From: a virus
Length of the DNA: 42,798 bases
Reading direction: 5' to 3' (one strand)
Virus record (IMG/VR): IMGVR_UViG_3300045988_177667
Span: 1 to 42,798 of that record
Shown here: positions 1 through 42,798 of the stretch, piece by piece
Numbering within the stretch: position 1 is the stretch's first letter
Layout of the letters: each line of letters starts with the position of its first letter
Notes under the pieces: model-generated
Seen by the model: the letters and a program-made list of their open reading frames with translations, nothing else
The model's database searches: none
What the model was told of the DNA's origin: nothing
Program-made: the position numbers and the translations under genes

Positions 1-55
1 TCACATTCGCACTCGCCACCCTCCACCCCAACTACTTCGTCCTCTGGACCGCACA
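1..55. repeat. 55-bp terminal overlap of the window, identical to 42744..42798 (circular-assembly closure)
   Basis: Bases 1-55 (tcacattcgcactcgccaccctcc...ggaccgcaca) recur exactly as the last 55 bases. The overlap lies inside the terL reading frame, which is continuous across it. Confidence 0.95.
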
Positions 56-1250
56 CCGCACACGCACCGCAGACGAAACATTCAACGACATGAAAGGAAT
101 GGCACAAATACCCGACATCGCCCCGTATGTGAATAAAATACGGCAAGCAAACGGACAGCAAGCCATCCTCTTCAACAACGGGTCACGAATCCTGTTCGGA
201 GCCCGCGAAGGAGGATTCGGACGCGGATTCCACGGCGTAGACATGATCCTCTTCGACGAAGCCCAAATCCTCGGCGCAGCCGCACTAGACGACATGATCC
301 CCGCCACAAACACCGCCCCGGATCCGCTCATCATCAAAATTGGGACACCGCCAAAACCAAAAGACCCATCCGAAGCGTTCAGCGAATTCCGCAACCTCGC
401 CCTGCAAGGCGAAATAAAAGACGGCCTCTACCTCGAACTAGCCGCCGACTACGACGCTAACAGCGACGACAGGAAACAATGGGAAAAAGCCAACCCATCA
501 TACCCGCGCCGCACCCCCGAGTCCGCCATTCTAAGAATGCGCCGACAGCTCGGGGAAGAATCATTCCGACGCGAAGGCCTCGGAATATGGGACCGCGCCA
601 ACGACAGACTCGCAATCGACCCTGTCGCCTGGAACACCGCCACAATACGGCCAGAAAACACACCACACGGCATGCGATGGTGCGCCGCGATCAGGTTCGC
701 ACCCGACGGATCAACATGCGCCCTAGCCAGGGCAGGACACAAAGCCAACACGCCCACACACGTCGAACTGTGCACACACCAAGGCGTCCGCCGTATGAGC
801 GAGGGCACGCAATGGATAATCGACTACATTGCGGACACCAAAGACAGGTGGGCGCAAATCATCGTAGACGGAAAATACGGCGCCGGCGACACAATCGAAA
901 GACTCCGTTCGATCGGAGTACGCCCACAAGTCATCATCACCCCCACAATCACGCAAATAATAGACGCCTACAGCATGCTAGACGCCTCACTACGCGAAAA
1001 CACAATCACACACCTAGACGACATGCAACTGAGGACCGAGGCCGCTTCTGCTACTCCACGCCCAATCGGAACATCCGGAGGGTGGGCGTTACAGGCCCCG
1101 CCCGGCGCCACCGTAGCCGGCCTAGAAGCCTGCACGCTCGCAATGTGGGCGGCACGCACAACAAAAAGACGGCCCCGTTACAAGCCTTATGATAAAATCG
1201 AGAACGCCAATAGTAGAAATGATCGTGGCGGCGGAGTATTGTTCCTATGA
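3..1250 (+). CDS. terL: Terminase large subunit, C-terminal continuation of the ORF that starts at 42500
   Basis: The frame of ORF 90..1250 is open back to base 3 and joins in-frame with 42500..42798 through the overlap, for a total of 497 aa. It has a Walker B-like ILFDEAQ and sits directly upstream of the portal with an ATGA overlap. Confidence 0.85.
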   Translation, partial: TFALATLHPNYFVLWTAHRTRTADETFNDMKGMAQIPDIAPYVNKIRQANGQQAILFNNGSRILFGAREGGFGRGFHGVDMILFDEAQILGAAALDDMIPATNTAPDPLIIKIGTPPKPKDPSEAFSEFRNLALQGEIKDGLYLELAADYDANSDDRKQWEKANPSYPRRTPESAILRMRRQLGEESFRREGLGIWDRANDRLAIDPVAWNTATIRPENTPHGMRWCAAIRFAPDGSTCALARAGHKANTPTHVELCTHQGVRRMSEGTQWIIDYIADTKDRWAQIIVDGKYGAGDTIERLRSIGVRPQVIITPTITQIIDAYSMLDASLRENTITHLDDMQLRTEAASATPRPIGTSGGWALQAPPGATVAGLEACTLAMWAARTTKRRPRYKPYDKIENANSRNDRGGGVLFL

Positions 1251-2869
1251 CTGAAATTTATCCTGATGATGGGCGATTCGTTAATGCTACGCCGGCACCG
1301 ACCCGCATTTCCGGACTTCCCGACGACGACCGGGTAACATTTCTGCAACTGTGGCAGAAATGGCAGCAGCATTCGAACAAAAACAAGCTGCTTTCCGTCT
1401 ACTATGACGGCCACCGCGCTTTCCAGGACCTTGGTATCAGTATTCCGCCGCAAATGACGCGCACCAAGGCCGCGTTGGGGTGGCCTCAGAAAGTCGTCAC
1501 CATGCTCGCCAGGAGGCACGTATTCGAGGGCTACTCCCTGAACGGGGCGCCCGACGCTTTCGAAGCAAACGAAATACTCTCCGCGAATAACTATGATCTT
1601 GATCTCGCCCAGGCGATAACGTCCGCGTACAAGCATTCCTTTTCGTTGCTCACAGTGACGCGGGGGGATGAGACCATTGGTGAGCCGCCTGTCGTGGTGC
1701 AGGCCCGTGATGCGGAATGGTCCGCCGCACTATGGGACACTAGACGTCGCATAATCGAAGCCGCCCTCACAATCGATCAGACTGACAAGTACGGTCAGCC
1801 GGCCGGCGCCATCATGCACACACCCACCGCCATTTGGCGAATCGACGCCAAAGAGAACGGCGGCGGCTGGAAAGCAGAGAAGCTCGGAGACACGCCCAAC
1901 CGTATTTTCGTTGAAGCACTCTGCTACGACCCGCAGCTGAACCGGCCGTTGGGGCATTCACGAATCACCCGTGAAGTAAGATATCTCACGGACGCGGCGG
2001 TGAGGACACTGGTCCGCGCAGAAACGTCCGCCGAATTTTTCTCCTCCCCGCAGCGGTACGTGCTCGGTGCGGAAAGAGCAGATTTTGCCGGCCAAGACAG
2101 GTGGTCCGCAATCATGGCACGCGTACAGGTTTTGGAGCCGAATGAGAACGGAGACATTCCCAGCGTTGGGCAATTCTCACAAATGACTATGAGCCCTCAC
2201 CTGGAAATGTACCGTCAGCTGGCGCAAAATTTGTGTGCAGCCACAAACCTCCCTCAATCCGCTATCGGGGTATTCGCGGAGAACCCCGCCTCGGCTGAGG
2301 CGATGCAGGCGGCCGAGGCGGGGCTCGCGGACGAGGCCGAGTATCAGTGGCGCATTTTCACTGCCCCGTTGCGGCGCACACTGCAGAACATCGTTATGGT
2401 TCGGGATAAGCTCGACGAGCCGCCGCAGGAGTCGTGGAAGACCTCAGTGAAGTGGACCCCCGCCCGCTATTCCTCGCCGTCGTCTGCCGCCGATTTCGCA
2501 GTCAAAATGGTCAGTGCTTTCCCGTCATTGCAGGAGTCTCAGACTCTCATGCGGCGTGCTGGACTCACCGAGGACGATCTCGCAGATATCAACGCCGAAA
2601 ATCGTAAAAAGAATGCGATGTCTCTGCTTGATCGTGCTCTCGCCGCCACGAACAACGGGAATACCGTGGATGAGAACGGCGAGAACACCGAAAACAGTGA
2701 CGCGGCCAACAATGATGGCGACGATGGTGCAGACAACGCCGTCAACAATGTCAGCAATAACGGCAACGGTAGCGGCAATAACCTGAACCTTAATAACGCA
2801 CCCAATACAAAAAACAGGGTTAAGCGCAACATTAAACTCCCCGGCGGCACCAAAACACCAATAAACTAA
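1247..2869 (+). CDS. Portal protein (called by position and size), with an Asn/Gly/Asp-rich low-complexity C-terminal tail
   Basis: A 540-aa ORF whose start overlaps the terL stop (ATGA). Its size and its position between terL and the head morphogenesis gene are typical of portals. Confidence 0.7.
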   Translation: MTEIYPDDGRFVNATPAPTRISGLPDDDRVTFLQLWQKWQQHSNKNKLLSVYYDGHRAFQDLGISIPPQMTRTKAALGWPQKVVTMLARRHVFEGYSLNGAPDAFEANEILSANNYDLDLAQAITSAYKHSFSLLTVTRGDETIGEPPVVVQARDAEWSAALWDTRRRIIEAALTIDQTDKYGQPAGAIMHTPTAIWRIDAKENGGGWKAEKLGDTPNRIFVEALCYDPQLNRPLGHSRITREVRYLTDAAVRTLVRAETSAEFFSSPQRYVLGAERADFAGQDRWSAIMARVQVLEPNENGDIPSVGQFSQMTMSPHLEMYRQLAQNLCAATNLPQSAIGVFAENPASAEAMQAAEAGLADEAEYQWRIFTAPLRRTLQNIVMVRDKLDEPPQESWKTSVKWTPARYSSPSSAADFAVKMVSAFPSLQESQTLMRRAGLTEDDLADINAENRKKNAMSLLDRALAATNNGNTVDENGENTENSDAANNDGDDGADNAVNNVSNNGNGSGNNLNLNNAPNTKNRVKRNIKLPGGTKTPIN

Positions 2870-2876
2870 CACCATT

Positions 2877-3602
2877 ATGCTGTCAACCGCAGAAATCGGG
2901 GCATACGGGCGAGCAATAGACTCACTCGTCACGCTCGCCCAAAATGACTTACACACACTCTGGGCGCACGCCGCTAGACAGCGCCCCGAGCAAGCGCGCG
3001 ACCTTCTACTCGAACTCATGCCTGCCCTCGTAGACCAATACGGTAGTGCGGCCGCCGCAATCGCCGACGAATGGTACCGAGACATGCGACTAGACCAGGA
3101 TGTCCCCGGTGACGCCCCCACGGTACAAACGTCACTCACCCCACAGGGCGAAATTGACGACAGTGTCAGATTCAGTGCGGGCGCACTATACGCCGGAACC
3201 CCTGACATCGCCCTATCCTATCTGACCGGGGCGCTCATCCGATACGTCAGCGACGGAGCCCGCTCACAAATCGCAGACATGACATGGTCCGACCCGGAAG
3301 CCATGGGCTGGGAAAGACGAACACGCAACCCACAAGCATGCAATTTCTGCGTCATGCTCACAATGAACGAATGCTACTACCGCAGCCAGGGGACGGCATC
3401 GTTCGGGGCGCACGACAATTGCAAATGTGTCGCCGTCCCAGCATGGGACCCAACCTCACGCGAAGTTCCCGCGAAAGCATACACGCTCGCAGCCAGACAC
3501 AAAACTGAAAAAGGTCGCAAACGCCATCGTGAACTCGTCTCATCGTGGATAGACACACACCAGGAAGAGCTCACAGAATGGCGCACCCGGCCAATTGAAT
3601 GA
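2877..3602 (+). CDS. MuF/SPP1 gp7-like head morphogenesis (minor capsid) protein, putative
   Basis: A 241-aa ORF immediately after the portal. It has a C-terminal Cys cluster (CNFC...CKC). The call rests mainly on position. Confidence 0.5.
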   Translation: MLSTAEIGAYGRAIDSLVTLAQNDLHTLWAHAARQRPEQARDLLLELMPALVDQYGSAAAAIADEWYRDMRLDQDVPGDAPTVQTSLTPQGEIDDSVRFSAGALYAGTPDIALSYLTGALIRYVSDGARSQIADMTWSDPEAMGWERRTRNPQACNFCVMLTMNECYYRSQGTASFGAHDNCKCVAVPAWDPTSREVPAKAYTLAARHKTEKGRKRHRELVSSWIDTHQEELTEWRTRPIE

Positions 3603-3605
3603 TTG

Positions 3606-3614
3606 TGCTACAAT
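3606..3614 (+). promoter_or_regulatory. Candidate extended -10 promoter element (TGcTACAAT) upstream of the scaffold and capsid genes
   Basis: The sequence tgtgctacaat lies in the 110-bp gap between the MuF-like gene and the scaffold gene. No clear -35 element was seen. Confidence 0.3.
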
Positions 3615-3712
3615 GCATAAACAAGGGGCCACTGAAGGACGGCTGCAAAGCCCAAAAGTAGTTGCCTGAAAACATCACAATAACCGCACGGTCAAAATAT
3701 AGGAAACGCCCA

Positions 3713-4195
3713 ATGAGCGACAACGCCGCAAGCGACACGCCAGCCGACAGCAGCGCCACTAACGACGACAACACCCCCAAGAATGGGGACAACGCTGCTA
3801 GTAAGCCTGAAATCGACTGGAAGAGCGAGTCCCGTAAGTGGGAGAGCCGCGCCAAGGAAAATCGGCGCGCCGCCAACGAACGGGATGAGCTTGCCAAGGC
3901 CATCGGCGACAAAGACGCCACAATCGAAGCCCTAAAGTCAAAGGTCGCTGACTTTGAAGCTGCTGCTAAGGTCCGCGAATGGTCCGCTAACGCGGCCGCA
4001 GAGCACGGTATCAGTGCCGATTTGATCCGAGGAACAACCGAGGATGAAATCAACGCTCATGCTGCCGCAATCGCCAAGGCATTGCACGACGCTAAGCCGT
4101 CCGTCGCCCCCGTGGTACCACAGGCCGGAGCCACGCCCGACAATGACGGCGGCAATCTTGCAGAATTCGCTCGGAATGTTTTCACCGGCGACTGA
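3713..4195 (+). CDS. Capsid scaffolding protein (putative)
   Basis: ATG at 3713 with an AGGAAA Shine-Dalgarno 6 nt upstream. The product is a 160-aa acidic, Ala/Lys/Glu-rich, coiled-coil-like protein directly upstream of the major capsid gene. The ORF-track start at 3662 is less likely. Confidence 0.55.
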   Translation: MSDNAASDTPADSSATNDDNTPKNGDNAASKPEIDWKSESRKWESRAKENRRAANERDELAKAIGDKDATIEALKSKVADFEAAAKVREWSANAAAEHGISADLIRGTTEDEINAHAAAIAKALHDAKPSVAPVVPQAGATPDNDGGNLAEFARNVFTGD

Positions 4196-39250: not shown

Positions 39251-39595
39251 AGTGCGTCTTAGATGGAGGAAAGGCGGTGTGTGATGGGTGTGTGATGTCG
39301 ACCACCGCACAGTGTCGATCTCTCACAGTTTCCGTTAACCTTCTGTTTACTTTGTTCACCTCCCGTTCACTTTCTACGCATGTGGGTTGTTTGCTAGCAA
39401 CTGGTTTTCTAGGACAAAAACACCCGTTTGTGTTACTACAATGTTGGTGCGTGTCGTCACACTTTCTGCCTTTGTAGCAAGGTTTTGCGCCAGAGAGTTC
39501 CTTGTGATTGCAACGTTTAGTCCCCGTTTGTGATTGTTTTGTTGGCAGTGTTTGTTGCTGGGACTTTAGTCTATATGCTACACTCGAGTAGACGA

Positions 39596-39675
39596 ATCGT
39601 CGAAGACGATCGGCGGCGCAGCCGCTGAGGAGCCCTAGCGACGCAAGCGAGCGTCAGCGCCGCCGGGTGTTTTCG
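39596..39675 (+). other. GC-rich compound hairpin followed by TTTT (orphan terminator or small structured RNA candidate)
   Basis: It contains atcgtc-gaa-gacgat. A 9-bp stem cggcggcgc/gcgccgccg then encloses a 37-nt GC-rich interior. ggtgTTTTcg follows. Confidence 0.35.
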
Positions 39676-39726
39676 AAGAGCTCGCCACTGTGTTGGGCCC
39701 AACCTATACTCTTAAAAGAGTACTAG

Positions 39727-39765
39727 AATTAGACACTGTCTAGCTGTGTTAGACAGTGTCTAATT
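39727..39765. promoter_or_regulatory. Paired palindromic operator-like sites AATTAGACAcTGTCTA / TAGACAgTGTCTAATT
   Basis: Two 13-bp palindromes (TAGACAnTGTCTA) lie 20 bp centre-to-centre. Together they form a 16-bp inverted repeat with a 7-bp spacer. Confidence 0.5.
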
Positions 39766-39910
39766 AGGGAATATGTGTTGTAACGTAATTAGTGTTCAAT
39801 GGTGAACATGGTGATCGTTAACAGTGAACAGTGTGTGGTGAGGACAACAATGCTGCTGTAGTGGTACACAACATACACACCTATTAAGTACACAAACCCA
39901 GAAACAATAA

Positions 39911-39970
39911 GGCGCGTGTTGTGTTACGTGCGTGCTCGCAGAGCTGCGCGCGCACTACACAACACACGCC
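39911..39970. repeat. Structured hairpin element, copy A (conserved 35-nt core, 14-bp outer stem)
   Basis: The sequence is ggcgcgtgttgtgt-tacgtgcgtgctcgcagagctgcgcgcgcact-acacaacacacgcc. The core matches copy B at 33 of 35 positions. Confidence 0.6.
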
Positions 39971-40047
39971 AACCCACAAACAAAGAGAAGAAGAAAAGCG
40001 AGGAGAGGAGGAAGAAGAAGGAAGAGGAGGAAGCAACAGAGAGAGTA

Positions 40048-40105
40048 GTGTTAGACGGTGGAGGCGCTCGTCTCGCTGACGCTGCGACGCGCCACCACCT
40101 AACAC
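40048..40105. repeat. Third imperfect GTGTT...AACAC hairpin
   Basis: gtgttag/ctaacac, ggtgg/ccacc and ggcgc/gcgcc are paired segments separated by bulges. Confidence 0.4.
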
Positions 40106-40139
40106 GACACAAAAAGAAGAGCAAAGAAGAAGAAACACG

Positions 40140-40484
40140 GTGAGCAGAACAAGCACAAAAGAACACAAACAATTCAGAAAACAAGTACTCGCCAGAGCAC
40201 AACAAATGGGCATCACACACTGCCCAGCATGCGGAACCAAACTCCAATACAACAACAACGGACAACGCAAACCCAACAGTGCCGAAGCCGACCACATAAT
40301 CCCAGCCTCGTTAGGCGGAACCAACCACCCAGACAACGGGCGAGTCCTCTGCGCCAAATGCAACAGCAGACGCGGCAACGGACGAGGAGGAAAAGGAAGA
40401 GCACGCCACTACCAGAAAAACGAAAACGAACGAGACAGACTACCCGTAGCCGTCATGCCCACCGAACACACCAACACATGGTGA
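40140..40484 (+). CDS. HNH endonuclease (terminase-associated type, judged by position)
   Basis: The 114-aa product reads HCPACGTKL...EADHIIPASLGGTNHPDNGRVLCAKCNSRRGN, the classic HNH with Cys pairs. It has a GTG start. It is located upstream of terS/terL, as in HK97-like cos phages. Confidence 0.8.
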   Translation: MSRTSTKEHKQFRKQVLARAQQMGITHCPACGTKLQYNNNGQRKPNSAEADHIIPASLGGTNHPDNGRVLCAKCNSRRGNGRGGKGRARHYQKNENERDRLPVAVMPTEHTNTW

Positions 40485-40580
40485 ATCACCCACCGCCATT
40501 CCAGCAGCAGAAGAAAGACGGGACACAGAGAAAGCGAGGAGAAGAAGAGACAGAGAAGAAGAAACAAAGGAAGACGCAAT

Positions 40581-40637
40581 GGTGTTCGGGGATAACGTGC
40601 GTGCTCGCAGGGCTGCGCGCGCACTACCCCGAACACC
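40581..40637. repeat. Structured hairpin element, copy B
   Basis: The sequence is ggtgttcgggg-ataacgtgcgtgctcgcagggctgcgcgcgcacta-ccccgaacacc. The perfect 11-bp outer stem differs in sequence from copy A but keeps complementarity. Confidence 0.6.
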
Positions 40638-41532
40638 AACACACAAAGGAAGAAGAAGAGGAAGAAGAAGAGAATACGGGAACAGTGAACTAAGACAAGA
40701 CACCACACACCCACCACCACCACCATTCCACAATACGCAACACAATGCGACACGACATGCACCACTACCACCGCACACGTTACAACATGACTGATGTGCA
40801 GACAGTAAACACCGCACGCCCTTCCACCCAACACAAACCATCACCGCCATCCCACAATGACACACCCCCTGACACAAAGACACCACCCTAAACCAACAAT
40901 GCTGTGACAGCAAACACACAGATGGGGAGAAGGGAAGAGGAAAGAGAAGAATGAGACACAGTCTCACCACAATGCCGCCCCCGCACCACCGCACTTCCTC
41001 CACCCCGCAACACAAGAGGAACAAGACAACACAAGAGAGACGGGAACAACATGAAGGGGATGACCCAACCCAACACAGGACACCACAGCACACACCACCC
41101 CCCGCCATTCAACGCGGCCACCACACAAACAGGAGAGGGACACCGATACAAATGGGAGGGGACACCAACATCAGACAGGGAGGTCAGTACTGCAACACCC
41201 GCCCTTCACTCACCATGCCACCCCCATCCACCATGCCACCCCACCATCCACACTGCCCCCACCCACCACCAATGCGAGGGGGGAGCAGACAGAGGATACC
41301 CCACCACAGACGAACACACACCCACACACACACACCGCACACCCGGCAAGACACAGCACACGACACGACCGCAGTACCGATGAGTACTGCACCGGGATAG
41401 GCGGGGCACGGGCCACACGCACTGACCGGGCAGGACAGCAGCAGCACACACCACCGCCATTCCACACACCACACACCAACGAGGATGGACACCATCCACT
41501 GTCTCACCTCACACTGTTCGCGTTCATACAAC

Positions 41533-41650
41533 CAACGAACGATCATGATCAACGACGATCAATGATCATCGTTCAATGATTGATCAACGAACAATGAACG
41601 ATGAACATGATGATGATCAATGATGATCAACAACGAACATGATCAACATG
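41533..41650. repeat. Iteron-like array rich in GATC (TGATCAAYRA and CAACGAAC words)
   Basis: Eight GATC sites lie at 41541, 41547, 41557, 41564, 41582, 41615, 41625 and 41641. (T/C)GATCAA occurs six times and CAACGAAC three times. Confidence 0.6.
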
Positions 41651-41766
41651 ATGATGAACACACGACGATGATGTGATGCATGACATGCATACCAATACCA
41701 TGCACCATGCATGGTGCCAACGCACGCCACAAGGCAATCGCATAACGCACAAACGCACAAACGCAT

Positions 41767-41811
41767 AAAAATGCATAAAAACAAAAGAAATGTTACAAAA
41801 ACATGCAAAAA
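41767..41811. other. Phased A-tracts (predicted intrinsically bent DNA)
   Basis: A5 runs begin at 41767, 41777, 41797 and 41807, with A4/A3 runs at 41783 and 41788. This gives a 10-bp phasing. Confidence 0.5.
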
Positions 41812-42044
41812 CATTCAAGGCACAATCCAACGATGGCGTTCAAAAAAACCATGGCAACAAAACGAGACGAACAAAAAGGGGGCCCCAAACCCGTAAGGGA
41901 TCCCTTAAAGTAGGACCCGCATCACAAAACAAGACAGGGAACGGAACAAACGAGACGCACACCACACAATTTATGTGATGGGGGCCACTCCCCCTCCCCC
42001 ATCCGGCCGCGAACACCCCGAAGGTCTGCCCATCCCTCCCTGCT

Positions 42045-42171
42045 TGTGGAAAACCCTGTGGATAACTCCAGTAACCCATGCCACAATGTGATCGCCATCA
42101 TGTGGAAAACTCCCAAACCTGTGGAAAACCCTGTGGATAACTTTCTAGCTTGTGGATAACCCTGTGGAAAA
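42045..42171 (-). promoter_or_regulatory. Cluster of seven co-oriented DnaA-box-like 9-mers (TTATCCACA x3 and TTTTCCACA x4 on the - strand)
   Basis: TGTGGATAA occurs at 42057, 42132 and 42151. TGTGGAAAA occurs at 42045, 42101, 42120 and 42163. Six of these form three 22-bp units with 12-bp box spacing. Confidence 0.6.
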
Positions 42172-42201
42172 CTCTTGCCGGACGTGACCAGTATCACCAC
42201 A

Positions 42202-42207
42202 TATAAT
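42202..42207 (+). promoter_or_regulatory. TATAAT -10 hexamer 7 nt upstream of the 42215 ATG (possible leaderless late transcript)
   Basis: The sequence is cacaTATAATaggaaacATG. No convincing -35 was found. The last DnaA box lies about 31 bp upstream. Confidence 0.35.
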
Positions 42208-42214
42208 AGGAAAC

Positions 42215-42496
42215 ATGACAACCCACACAAACACCACAATCACCATATACGAACCCAACAGCCCCGCACCCATCACAGACGCCACAAACACAGGCAACCC
42301 AACACTCATACGCCAAGCACTCGCACACAAAATCGCCACCGTCATAGACGACCCCAGAACAGGCGACACAGCACTCACAAAACTCACCGCACAACTCATA
42401 CAAATCACAGACCAACTCGCCACCACACAAAACGAAAACACACAAACACACACCCCCGACATTCCAAACGAAACACAAACCTGGGACGGCATCTAA
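42215..42496 (+). CDS. Candidate small terminase subunit (called by position only)
   Basis: A 93-aa Thr/Gln-rich ORF that ends 4 nt before the terL ATG. Confidence 0.35.
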   Translation: MTTHTNTTITIYEPNSPAPITDATNTGNPTLIRQALAHKIATVIDDPRTGDTALTKLTAQLIQITDQLATTQNENTQTHTPDIPNETQTWDGI

Positions 42497-42499
42497 AAA

Positions 42500-42798
42500 A
42501 TGAGCGAAAAACACCTAAGCGAAATCGCCGCCCACCTCACCCTCCCAGAAAACATCACACACACCGCCTGGCCACCAGTCCAACGCCGCCTCCAAGAAAT
42601 GCAATACCCCCTCGACATATGGCAGCAAGACTGGCTCAAAGCAATCCTCGCAAAAAGAAAAGACGGCCACTACGCCGCCAGCATCGACGGAATCCAAGCC
42701 AGCATCCCCAGACAGGTCGGCAAAACATACACAATCGGCGGCCTCACATTCGCACTCGCCACCCTCCACCCCAACTACTTCGTCCTCTGGACCGCACA
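42500..42798 (+). CDS. terL: Terminase large subunit, N-terminal part (continues at base 3 across the circular junction)
   Basis: ATG at 42500. The product reads MSEKHLSEIAAHL...ASIPRQVGKTYTIGG with a P-loop. The frame is open to the window end and is in phase with 3..1250 through the 55-bp overlap. Confidence 0.85.
   Translation, partial: MSEKHLSEIAAHLTLPENITHTAWPPVQRRLQEMQYPLDIWQQDWLKAILAKRKDGHYAASIDGIQASIPRQVGKTYTIGGLTFALATLHPNYFVLWTA
42744..42798. repeat. Second copy of the 55-bp terminal overlap
   Basis: Identical to bases 1..55. Confidence 0.95.

What the first reader, a model, noticed from the sequence alone, without database searches (positions are those of the whole stretch)
39911..40637. 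Two hairpin elements with a conserved core and compensatory outer stems flank the HNH gene
Copy A (39911..39970) and copy B (40581..40637) share a 35-nt core, t(t/a)acgtgcgtgctcgcag(a/g)gctgcgcgcgcactac, matching at 33 of 35 positions. The core itself folds through gtgcg/cgcac and cgcag/ctgcg pairings.

The outer stems are completely different in sequence but complementary in both copies. They are ggcgcgtgttgtgt/acacaacacacgcc in copy A and ggtgttcgggg/ccccgaacacc in copy B. This covariation argues that the structure itself is selected.

Both copies are preceded by agaaacaa and followed by aac(c/a)cacaaa plus a polypurine tract. They bracket the HNH endonuclease gene like the ends of a cassette. 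Possible roles are a structured RNA, a DNA cruciform used in cos recognition or cleavage, or the footprint of a mobile HNH cassette.
Basis: seen in the sequence. Interest (0 to 1): 0.7.

Follow-up and report, generated by a model that had tools for sequence, protein, structure and literature searches.

The report
Paired conserved hairpins flanking phage HNH gene
Two copies of one strongly conserved, base-paired hairpin (with a third, looser relative) sit either side of the packaging-nuclease gene of an abundant oral phage; they are most likely RNA signals in the leader of the late operon, not the ends of a mobile cassette or the DNA-packaging cut site.

Summary
Hairpins A (39911-39970) and B (40580-40638) share an exact 33-nt core (0 expected by chance). 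Each folds at about -39 kcal/mol (z about -5).

About 60 related contigs in IMG/VR carry both copies flanking HNH. The core is about 10 times less diverse than HNH synonymous sites; essentially only two loop bases vary. The lower stem of A varies with compensatory changes, whereas the lower stem of B is invariant. The loops of A and B co-vary within genomes, which indicates gene conversion.

The cassette and cos readings fail.
- An orthologous HNH sits at the same place in phages with about 60% TerL identity that lack the hairpins.
- No genome lacks HNH.
- The physical genome end maps to about 42027, which is 1.4 to 2.1 kb away from the hairpins.
- A coding reading also fails: spacer lengths break the frame, and the loop changes are non-synonymous.

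The best reading is a pair of cis-acting structured modules in the T-poor, untranslated leader of the rightward late operon (promoter/operators, then A, H3, HNH, B, cos, terS). They would be recognised by a specific factor, most likely as RNase III-type processing or stabilising sites. Processive antitermination is the main RNA rival. The strand, and whether the active form is RNA or single-stranded DNA, is unresolved. There is no Rfam match.

The parts
39911..39970 (+). Hairpin A. The lower stem is 39911-39924 paired with 39957-39970 and is free in sequence but compensated. The internal loop is UAC/U. The invariant core is 39925-39958: an 8-bp stem with a fixed U.G, a UC bulge, a 3-4 bp apical stem and an NNGC loop.
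40580..40638 (+). Hairpin B. It has the same core (40594-40627) on an unrelated 11-12 bp lower stem that is invariant in 32 distinct variants. The internal loop is AUAAC/UA.
40047..40105 (+). Hairpin H3. It is nearly invariant in all relatives (pi 0.024). It shares GCTCG...GCTGCG(A)CGCGC with the A/B core, so it may be a distant paralogue.
   Evidence: the R1 model gives only 13.7 bits, E 0.096
40140..40484 (+). HNH endonuclease gene. This is the resident, terminase-associated type. Its start codon alternates GTG/ATG among relatives.
   Evidence: Pfam HNH/HNH_5
39971..40039 (+). Hypervariable polypurine spacer after A. Similar spacers lie at 40108-40139, 40485-40579 and 40639-40700. They are non-coding, because their lengths take all three values modulo 3.
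39682..39765 (+). Invariant promoter-like TCGCCA-17-TATACT (39682-39710), followed by 2-3 palindromic operators TTAGACAnTGTCTAA. This is the presumed start of the rightward unit that contains A, H3, HNH and B.
   Evidence: inferred; no transcript data
42016..42030 (.). Physical genome end (cos cut region). The left end reads TGCCCATCCCTCC... from 42027.

Best explanation
A and B are two paralogous copies of a cis-acting structured module, with H3 as a looser third. They lie in the untranslated, T-poor leader of the rightward late transcription unit. The proposed order of that unit is: regulated promoter near 39.7 kb, A, H3, HNH, B, about 1.4 kb of non-coding DNA, cos at about 42027, then terS, terL and the structural genes.

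**Proposed mechanism.** The elements act in the + strand RNA. The sequence-invariant upper part is the recognition surface for a trans-acting factor: an 8-bp helix with a fixed U.G, a 2-nt bulge and a short apical helix. The lower helix only has to exist, bringing each element to about 22-26 bp and about -39 kcal/mol. The most likely activity is double-strand-specific endonucleolytic processing of the RNase III type, cutting at the asymmetric internal loop. That would excise the HNH cistron from the long leader and leave protective terminal hairpins. HNH dosage and stability would then be set separately from the downstream late genes.

**Shown here**
- The duplication.
- Base-pairing maintained by compensation.
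- Strong purifying selection on the core.
- Concerted evolution of the two copies.
- A non-coding context.
- The position relative to HNH and cos.

**Inferred, not shown**
- That the + strand is transcribed from the 39.7-kb promoter.
- That RNA is the active form.
- That the factor is RNase III-like.
For: **Reality and structure**
- Exact two-copy core and stable folds.
- Covariation.
- A and B have equal overall stability despite unrelated lower stems: -40.0 +/- 2.8 and -39.1 +/- 1.1 kcal/mol. Chimeric arms give -35.

**Selection**
- Core diversity is pi 0.018-0.021, against 0.196 at HNH third codon positions and 0.37-0.48 in the spacers.
- Two loop bases vary freely; single-base changes outside the loop occur in only a few contigs. 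One core pair changed C-G to T-A on both sides.
- The U.G in the inner helix is invariant in all 62 distinct copies. A T-to-C change there would fit the local base-composition bias, yet it is never seen.

**Context**
- Both copies have the same orientation as HNH, and only two copies exist in the genome.
- They lie downstream of an invariant promoter-like site with operators.
- The flanking spacers are non-coding.
- In actinobacteriophages, late transcription is known to start near the right end and run through cos (PMC11373665).
- Helix length of 22-26 bp with an asymmetric internal loop about 11 bp below the loop matches what I recall of T7 R1.1-type RNase III sites. This resemblance is from memory, not tested.
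Against: - There are no transcript data of any kind.
- RNase III does not normally need this much sequence conservation, so the invariant core points to a more specific partner.
- The lower stem of B is invariant, which the model does not explain.
- In the lower stem of A, 22 of 27 non-Watson-Crick cells are C.A/A.C on the + strand. These would be G.U wobbles on the - strand. That helix is 97.1% paired on - and 89.9% on +. This partly follows from the T-poor base-composition bias, but it leans towards the - strand or DNA.
- The elements are confined to one tight phage cluster, so the depth of covariation is shallow.
- There is no Rfam family match.
Confidence: 0.4

Rival explanations
1. Processive antitermination or anti-Rho RNA elements, working like HK022 put or lambda nut. 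The nascent hairpin, alone or with a phage or host protein, would modify RNA polymerase. The polymerase could then cross the roughly 1.4-kb untranslated C/A-rich tract and cos and read the 20-kb late operon.
For: - The sequence-invariant core on a structure-only lower stem fits a specific binding surface.
- A lies 200-250 nt downstream of the promoter-like site. B lies just before a long untranslated, C-rich and G-poor stretch that should invite Rho.
- Having two copies on one unit would allow re-loading.
Against: - The element is a single extended hairpin, not the two-stem put fold, and no boxA/boxB pair is evident.
- Rfam gives no hit.
- No convincing + strand terminators were found in the late operon.
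- No candidate N- or Q-like protein was identified.
Confidence: 0.15
2. The active form is the - strand or single-stranded/cruciform DNA. One option is hairpins acting as terminators or attenuators of leftward antisense transcription. Another is strand-specific replication signals (priming or unwinding) at the edge of an origin-like non-coding region near the right genome end.
For: - The lower stem of A pairs better on the - strand: 97.1% against 89.9%, with 13 against 6 additional pair types.
- On the - strand, A is followed by UUAUUGUUU.
- The adjoining 1.5 kb is non-coding. It contains iterons, a GATC cluster, repeated motifs and a conserved block at 41600-42142.
- The phage encodes its own primase and helicase.
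- P. acnes phages have a comparable non-coding region at the right end that has been proposed as an origin (PMC3448167).
Against: - The core has an invariant C.A mismatch on the - strand, where the + strand has U.G.
- The U-rich tails on the - strand are a by-product of base composition and are weak for B and H3.
- No conserved - strand gene or strong - strand promoter was shown to the right of B.
- The excess of C.A cells is roughly what the T-poor bias predicts. My estimate is about 3:1 expected against about 11:1 observed events, which is not significant.
Confidence: 0.2
3. Ends or footprint of a mobile HNH cassette (homing endonuclease, IS200/IS605-like or attC-like element).
For: Direct repeats bracket a small nuclease gene.
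Against: - HNH is present in every one of the 29 distinct genomes in which both copies could be paired.
- Orthologous HNH (40-44% identity over the full length) occupies the same slot before terS in relatives that lack the hairpins.
- The same right-end position is seen in P. acnes and Arthrobacter phages.
- There is no transposase or HUH gene.
- The conserved-centre, variable-flank layout is the opposite of attC.
- The core gave no hit in 185,579 genomes.
Confidence: 0.03
4. cos recognition or cleavage structure for the HNH-terminase complex.
For: The hairpins are close to HNH and lie within the right-terminal 2.1 kb of the genome.
Against: - The physical end maps to about 42027, which is 1.4 kb from B and 2.1 kb from A.
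- The repeats next to that end, TGTGGA(A/T)AAC x7, are the natural candidates for TerS binding sites.
Confidence: 0.03
5. The core is conserved because it encodes a peptide (VRARRAARAL), or the pair is a recent neutral duplication.
For: - The same reading frame is open through both cores. B begins with ATG in most genomes.
Against: - T-poor DNA has open frames by default.
- The A-to-H3 and H3-to-HNH spacer lengths take all three values modulo 3.
- No start codon is conserved in A.
- The two variable bases give R/K/M/T/G at one codon.
- Both copies are present in all cluster members while their flanks have fully diverged. The core is 10 times less diverse than synonymous sites.
Confidence: 0.03

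Closest known systems
RNase III processing hairpins of phage polycistronic mRNAs (T7 R0.3-R18.5; B. subtilis phage SP82 early-mRNA sites)
   Same: - Several paralogous hairpins of about two helical turns, with an internal loop, sit between or around cistrons of one long transcript.
- The copies resemble each other in sequence.
- The expected effect is to define mRNA ends and protect them.
(Recalled knowledge; not tested here.)
   Different: - Cleavage is not shown.
- The upper 28-33 nt are far more strictly conserved than RNase III needs.
- The lower stem of one copy is also sequence-fixed.
- The host is an actinobacterium, and the surrounding sequence is a T-less polypurine leader.
HK022 putL/putR and lambda nutL/nutR antitermination RNA sites
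   Same: - Two related copies of a structured RNA lie downstream of promoters.
- Structure is kept by compensatory change.
- They act in cis on long operons.
   Different: - Here there is one extended hairpin, not two stem-loops, and no boxA/boxB.
- Both copies are on the same transcription unit.
- Rfam gives no match.
- The function is untested.
Right-end non-coding region of Cutibacterium (P.) acnes phages (PMC3448167), and late transcription through cos in actinobacteriophages (PMC11373665)
   Same: - The genome plan is the same: leftward replication genes, then a non-coding region of unusual composition and high variability with conserved islands, then a rightward HNH next to cos.
- Late transcripts start near the right end.
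   Different: - The P. acnes region is AT-rich and shows no similarity to A, B or H3.
- In the present phage most of the non-coding DNA lies between HNH and cos.
Intrinsic terminators
   Same: A G+C-rich hairpin.
   Different: - There is no U tract on the + strand.
- The stem is much longer than is typical for terminators.
- The core is sequence-conserved.

Membership tests
RNase III processing site | About 20 bp or more of near-continuous double-stranded RNA | tested here: met
   Predicted helices of 22-26 bp (lower 11-14, then 8, then 3-4), interrupted by one internal loop and one bulge.
RNase III processing site | Lies in a leader or intercistronic part of a transcribed polycistronic unit | tested here: inconclusive
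   The position fits: a promoter-like site is upstream, HNH lies between the copies, and the flanks are non-coding. No transcript evidence exists.
RNase III processing site | Cleaved by RNase III | not testable with these tools
   Needs an in vitro cleavage assay or in vivo end mapping.
Intrinsic (Rho-independent) terminator | Hairpin immediately followed by a U tract on the transcribed strand | tested here: not met
   On the + strand the tails are AACCCACAAA and AACACACAAA, and the scan reports no + strand site. On the - strand, A has UUAUUGUUU but B has UUGCGUCUU. The whole - strand is T-rich here, so this is uninformative.
put / nut antitermination RNAs and any Rfam family | Match to the family covariance model or its defining fold | tested here: not met
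   No hit on A, B or H3 at E up to 5. No match at gathering score anywhere in the window.
Mobile HNH cassette (homing, IS200/IS605-like, integron attC) | Presence/absence polymorphism or occurrence at other loci; an associated transposase or integrase; for attC, conserved outer boxes with a variable centre | tested here: not met
   HNH and both hairpins are present in every genome examined. Orthologous HNH is at the same site in relatives without the hairpins. The core is absent from genome contigs. The layout is conserved centre with variable flanks.
cos site | Coincides with the physical ends of virion DNA | tested here: not met
   At least 10 contigs start at 42027, one with an adapter fused there. 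A contig end reads through ...GAAGGTC|TGC(C/T)CATCC.
Protein-coding sequence | Reading frame kept across relatives and substitutions biased towards synonymous | tested here: not met
   Spacer lengths take values 0, 1 and 2 modulo 3. The loop codon reads R/K/M/T/G.

The most novel reading that the evidence does not exclude
The invariant core is the docking site of a dedicated factor that makes late transcription processive. That factor could be a phage protein or RNA polymerase itself. A, B and perhaps H3 would then be the first put/nut-like antitermination RNAs described for an actinobacterial phage. They would operate in a start-codon-free and stop-codon-free, T-less leader that must be crossed, through cos, to express the virion genes. 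An equally unusual alternative is that they are strand-specific single-stranded-DNA signals of a right-end replication origin.
Probability: 0.15. Interest if true: 0.75.

Novelty: new variant of a known kind. Interest (0 to 1): 0.45.

Why it matters
This phage group is very abundant in public metagenome data: its TerL 90%-identity cluster has 1,765 member sequences. It probably infects Actinomyces/Schaalia-like bacteria. Nothing is known about gene regulation in such phages.

The element is well defined and has several useful properties:
- A fixed recognition core on a stem that only has to pair.
- Concerted evolution between the two copies.
- A position at the entry to the late operon.

This gives a concrete handle for finding the factor that controls late expression or replication. 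It is also a clean candidate for a new RNA family. If it proves to be only a processing or stability hairpin, it is a routine addition to phage mRNA biology.

Tried and rejected
- **Rfam scans.** The region at E up to 5 and the whole window at gathering score gave nothing on the hairpins.
- **Megablast and blastn against cultured phages.** Only weak matches to the HNH gene were found.
- **Exact core search in 185,579 genomes.** No hit, so no prophage or host copy exists there.
- **Covariance model R1 on the whole window and on distant relatives.** There are only two true copies per genome, and none in the phages with 41-63% TerL identity or in LC001.
- **Search for intermediate relatives.** TerL homologues drop from 97% to 63% identity with nothing in between. 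The metagenome scan was therefore not spent.
- **Deciding the folding strand from wobble versus mismatch counts.** Both strands give 94.3% pairing overall. The lower stem favours the - strand and the core favours the + strand. The asymmetry is confounded by the T-poor base composition.
- **Terminators in the late operon, to support antitermination.** None was convincing on the + strand.
- **Literature search for HNH, cos and stem-loop together.** Nothing was found.
- **The apparent B/A chimera in L042.** It is a contig-end artefact that runs through the shared core.
- **The P. acnes phage right-end region.** It is not similar to this region.

Full report
**Setting.** The window is a circularised phage contig: bases 1-55 repeat 42744-42798. 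TerL spans the junction, from ATG 42500 to 1250. The portal gene is 1247-2869, and structural genes follow on the + strand. Replication and recombination genes lie on the - strand between about 19 and 39.5 kb: primase/helicase, helicase, exonuclease and a Sak4-like annealase. HNH is 40140-40484 on the + strand. The closest cultured phage by portal is Actinomyces phage LC001, at 55% amino-acid identity. TerL relatives at 57-63% identity are found in Actinomyces and Schaalia genomes, so the host is probably an oral actinomycete.

The 33-nt core is present exactly twice, both times on the + strand, with none in shuffles. Each element folds into one extended hairpin of about -39 kcal/mol, z about -5. 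From the base upward the anatomy is:
- a lower stem (14 bp in A, 11-12 bp in B);
- an asymmetric internal loop (UAC/U in A, AUAAC/UA in B);
- an 8-bp helix containing a U.G;
- a UC bulge;
- a 3-4 bp apical helix;
- a four-base loop.

A covariance model built from copy A finds only these two copies in the genome. Other hits are generic hairpins.

**Relatives.** An exact-core scan of IMG/VR gave 27 loci, and a TerL scan gave 63. Nearly all come from one tight cluster with TerL identity of 94-100%. Every genome that could be checked has A and B 630-690 nt apart with HNH between them. The patterns of variation are informative:
- Nucleotide diversity is 0.196 at HNH third codon positions and 0.37-0.48 in the polypurine spacers.
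- Diversity is only 0.018-0.021 in the two cores, about 0 in the lower stem of B, and 0.024 in a third hairpin, H3 (40040-40107).
- Within the core, two loop bases change freely (GG, GA, AA, AG, TG, CA). A few contigs carry single-base changes elsewhere. One contig carries a C-G to T-A change on both sides of an inner pair, and the U.G is invariant.
- The lower stem of A evolves at about the neutral rate but stays paired. Four pairs have changes on both sides in 17-18 cells (0 of 500 shuffles).
- With B included there are 7 such pairs, 97.5% of cells pair, and the covariation score is 0.197 against 0.066. This alignment was fitted to the model.
- Swapping arms between genomes costs about 5 kcal/mol. 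A and B have the same total stability despite unrelated lower stems.

So the structure is selected, and the upper part is also selected for its sequence.

**Concerted evolution.** In 29 distinct genomes the loop variant of A equals that of B in 19 cases, against 8.6 expected (permutation p = 5e-5, ignoring phylogeny). Two private variants, TG in L063 and CA in L069, occur in both copies of a single genome. Gene conversion between the two 33-nt repeats is the simplest explanation. It accounts for identity within a genome but not for conservation between genomes.

**Not coding.**
- The distances from the A core to H3 and from H3 to the HNH start take all three values modulo 3.
- The polypurine spacers are riddled with indels.
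- The variable loop bases would change one codon to R, K, M, T or G.
- Long open frames here are a trivial consequence of the lack of T.

**Not a mobile cassette.** Phages with about 60% TerL identity (L092, L094) have an orthologous full-length HNH (40-44% identity, with the same N- and C-terminal motifs) at the same place just upstream of terS and TerL. They have no A/B-like element. HNH next to the right end is also seen in P. acnes and Arthrobacter phages. No member of the cluster lacks HNH, and the core is absent from 185,579 reference genomes.

**Not cos.** At least ten independent contigs begin at the homologue of window 42027 (TGCCCATCCCTCC...). One has an Illumina adapter fused at that base and one shows a snap-back artefact there. 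One full-length contig ends by reading through ...CCCCGAAGGTC|TGC(C/T)CATCC. The virion end is therefore 1.4 kb to the right of B. It is immediately followed by seven same-orientation TGTGGA(A/T)AAC repeats found nowhere else in the genome, which are probably TerS sites.

**Context.**
- Upstream of A is an invariant block with a promoter-like TCGCCA-17-TATACT (39682-39710), followed by 2-3 palindromic operators.
- From about 39.9 kb onward the + strand is strikingly T-poor, with AT skew 0.54-0.64.
- Between the conserved hairpins lie polypurine tracts of variable length. These contain neither start nor stop codons.
- In actinobacteriophages late transcription is known to start near the right end and run through cos into the virion genes (PMC11373665).
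- The relatives with 60% TerL identity also have a strong G+C hairpin followed by a T-less stretch upstream of HNH. The layout may therefore be general even though the A/B sequence is not.

**Interpretation.** The most economical reading is that A, B and possibly H3 are cis-acting modules in the + strand leader RNA of the late operon. The fixed upper part would be recognised by a trans-acting factor, and the lower helix would provide length and stability. I favour RNase III-type processing and stabilisation that sets the boundaries of the HNH message (confidence about 0.4 for this RNA processing/stability reading). Processive antitermination is the main RNA-level rival (0.15), because the degree of sequence conservation suggests a more specific partner than RNase III.

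A role for the - strand or for DNA (0.2) cannot be dismissed. The lower stem of A pairs better on the - strand, 97.1% against 89.9%. Twenty-two of 27 non-Watson-Crick cells are C.A on the + strand. The neighbouring 1.5 kb looks like a replication or packaging control region, and P. acnes phages offer a precedent (PMC3448167). Against this, the core carries an invariant C.A on the - strand where the + strand has U.G, and the excess of C.A is what the T-poor composition predicts. The strand and molecule type are therefore unresolved.

**Novelty and score.** No Rfam family matches. The element is restricted to one very abundant phage cluster. It is a genuine, well-supported structured element of a familiar general kind, with unusual features: an invariant core, one fixed and one free lower stem, gene conversion between the copies, and a T-less leader. 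Its function is not established. Interest is 0.45.

Noticed in passing
window 40040-40107: A third hairpin (H3) lies between A and HNH. It is essentially invariant in all relatives (pi 0.024) while both flanking spacers are hypervariable. It shares GCTCG...GCTGCG(A)CGCGC with the A/B core but scores only 13.7 bits with the A model.
   Followed up: partly
window 39590-39700: A highly conserved (pi 0.044) branched hairpin (-52.7 kcal/mol) with compensatory changes among relatives is followed by GTGTTTTCG. It sits between the leftward operon and the TATACT promoter-like site. It could be a terminator or a small structured RNA.
   Followed up: partly
window 39727-39765: Palindromic operators TTAGACAnTGTCTAA occur twice here and three times in L001, L007, L024 and L026. 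TAGAC half-sites recur just upstream of hairpin A in relatives and inside the 5' arm of H3.
   Followed up: no
window 42016-42175: The physical genome end (cos) is at about 42027. It is followed by seven same-orientation TGTGGA(A/T)AAC repeats (DnaA-box-like) that occur nowhere else in the genome. They are probably cosB/TerS binding sites.
   Followed up: partly
window 39900-42798 and 1-4000: There is extreme strand asymmetry: the + strand is T-poor, with AT skew up to 0.64. This covers 1.5 kb of non-coding DNA and the terS/terL genes. The polypurine (GAA/GAG-like) tracts are hypervariable in length and lack start and stop codons. A similar T-less stretch precedes HNH in relatives with 60% TerL identity.
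   Followed up: partly
window 40490-42466: The motif CCACCGCCATTCCA occurs six times, all in the same orientation. In many relatives a copy directly abuts the 3' arm of hairpin A (...CCGCCATTCCACAA).
   Followed up: no
window 41530-42142: There are TGATCA/ATGATGA iterons with 8 GATC sites in 100 nt, after a 1.7-kb stretch with no GATC. A 540-nt conserved block runs up to and across cos and contains a possible - strand promoter (TTGAAT-17-TAACAT, about 41816-41788). This may be an origin or packaging control region.
   Followed up: partly
hairpins A and B in 29 related genomes: The loop variants of A and B match within genomes far more often than expected (19 of 29 against 8.6). They include private variants present in both copies of a single genome, which indicates gene conversion between the two 33-nt repeats.
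   Followed up: yes
L074, L084, L042 (IMG/VR contigs): Three assembly artefacts were seen. An Illumina adapter is retained at a contig start. A snap-back inverted duplication sits at the genome end. A chimeric contig end jumps between B and A through the shared core.
   Followed up: yes
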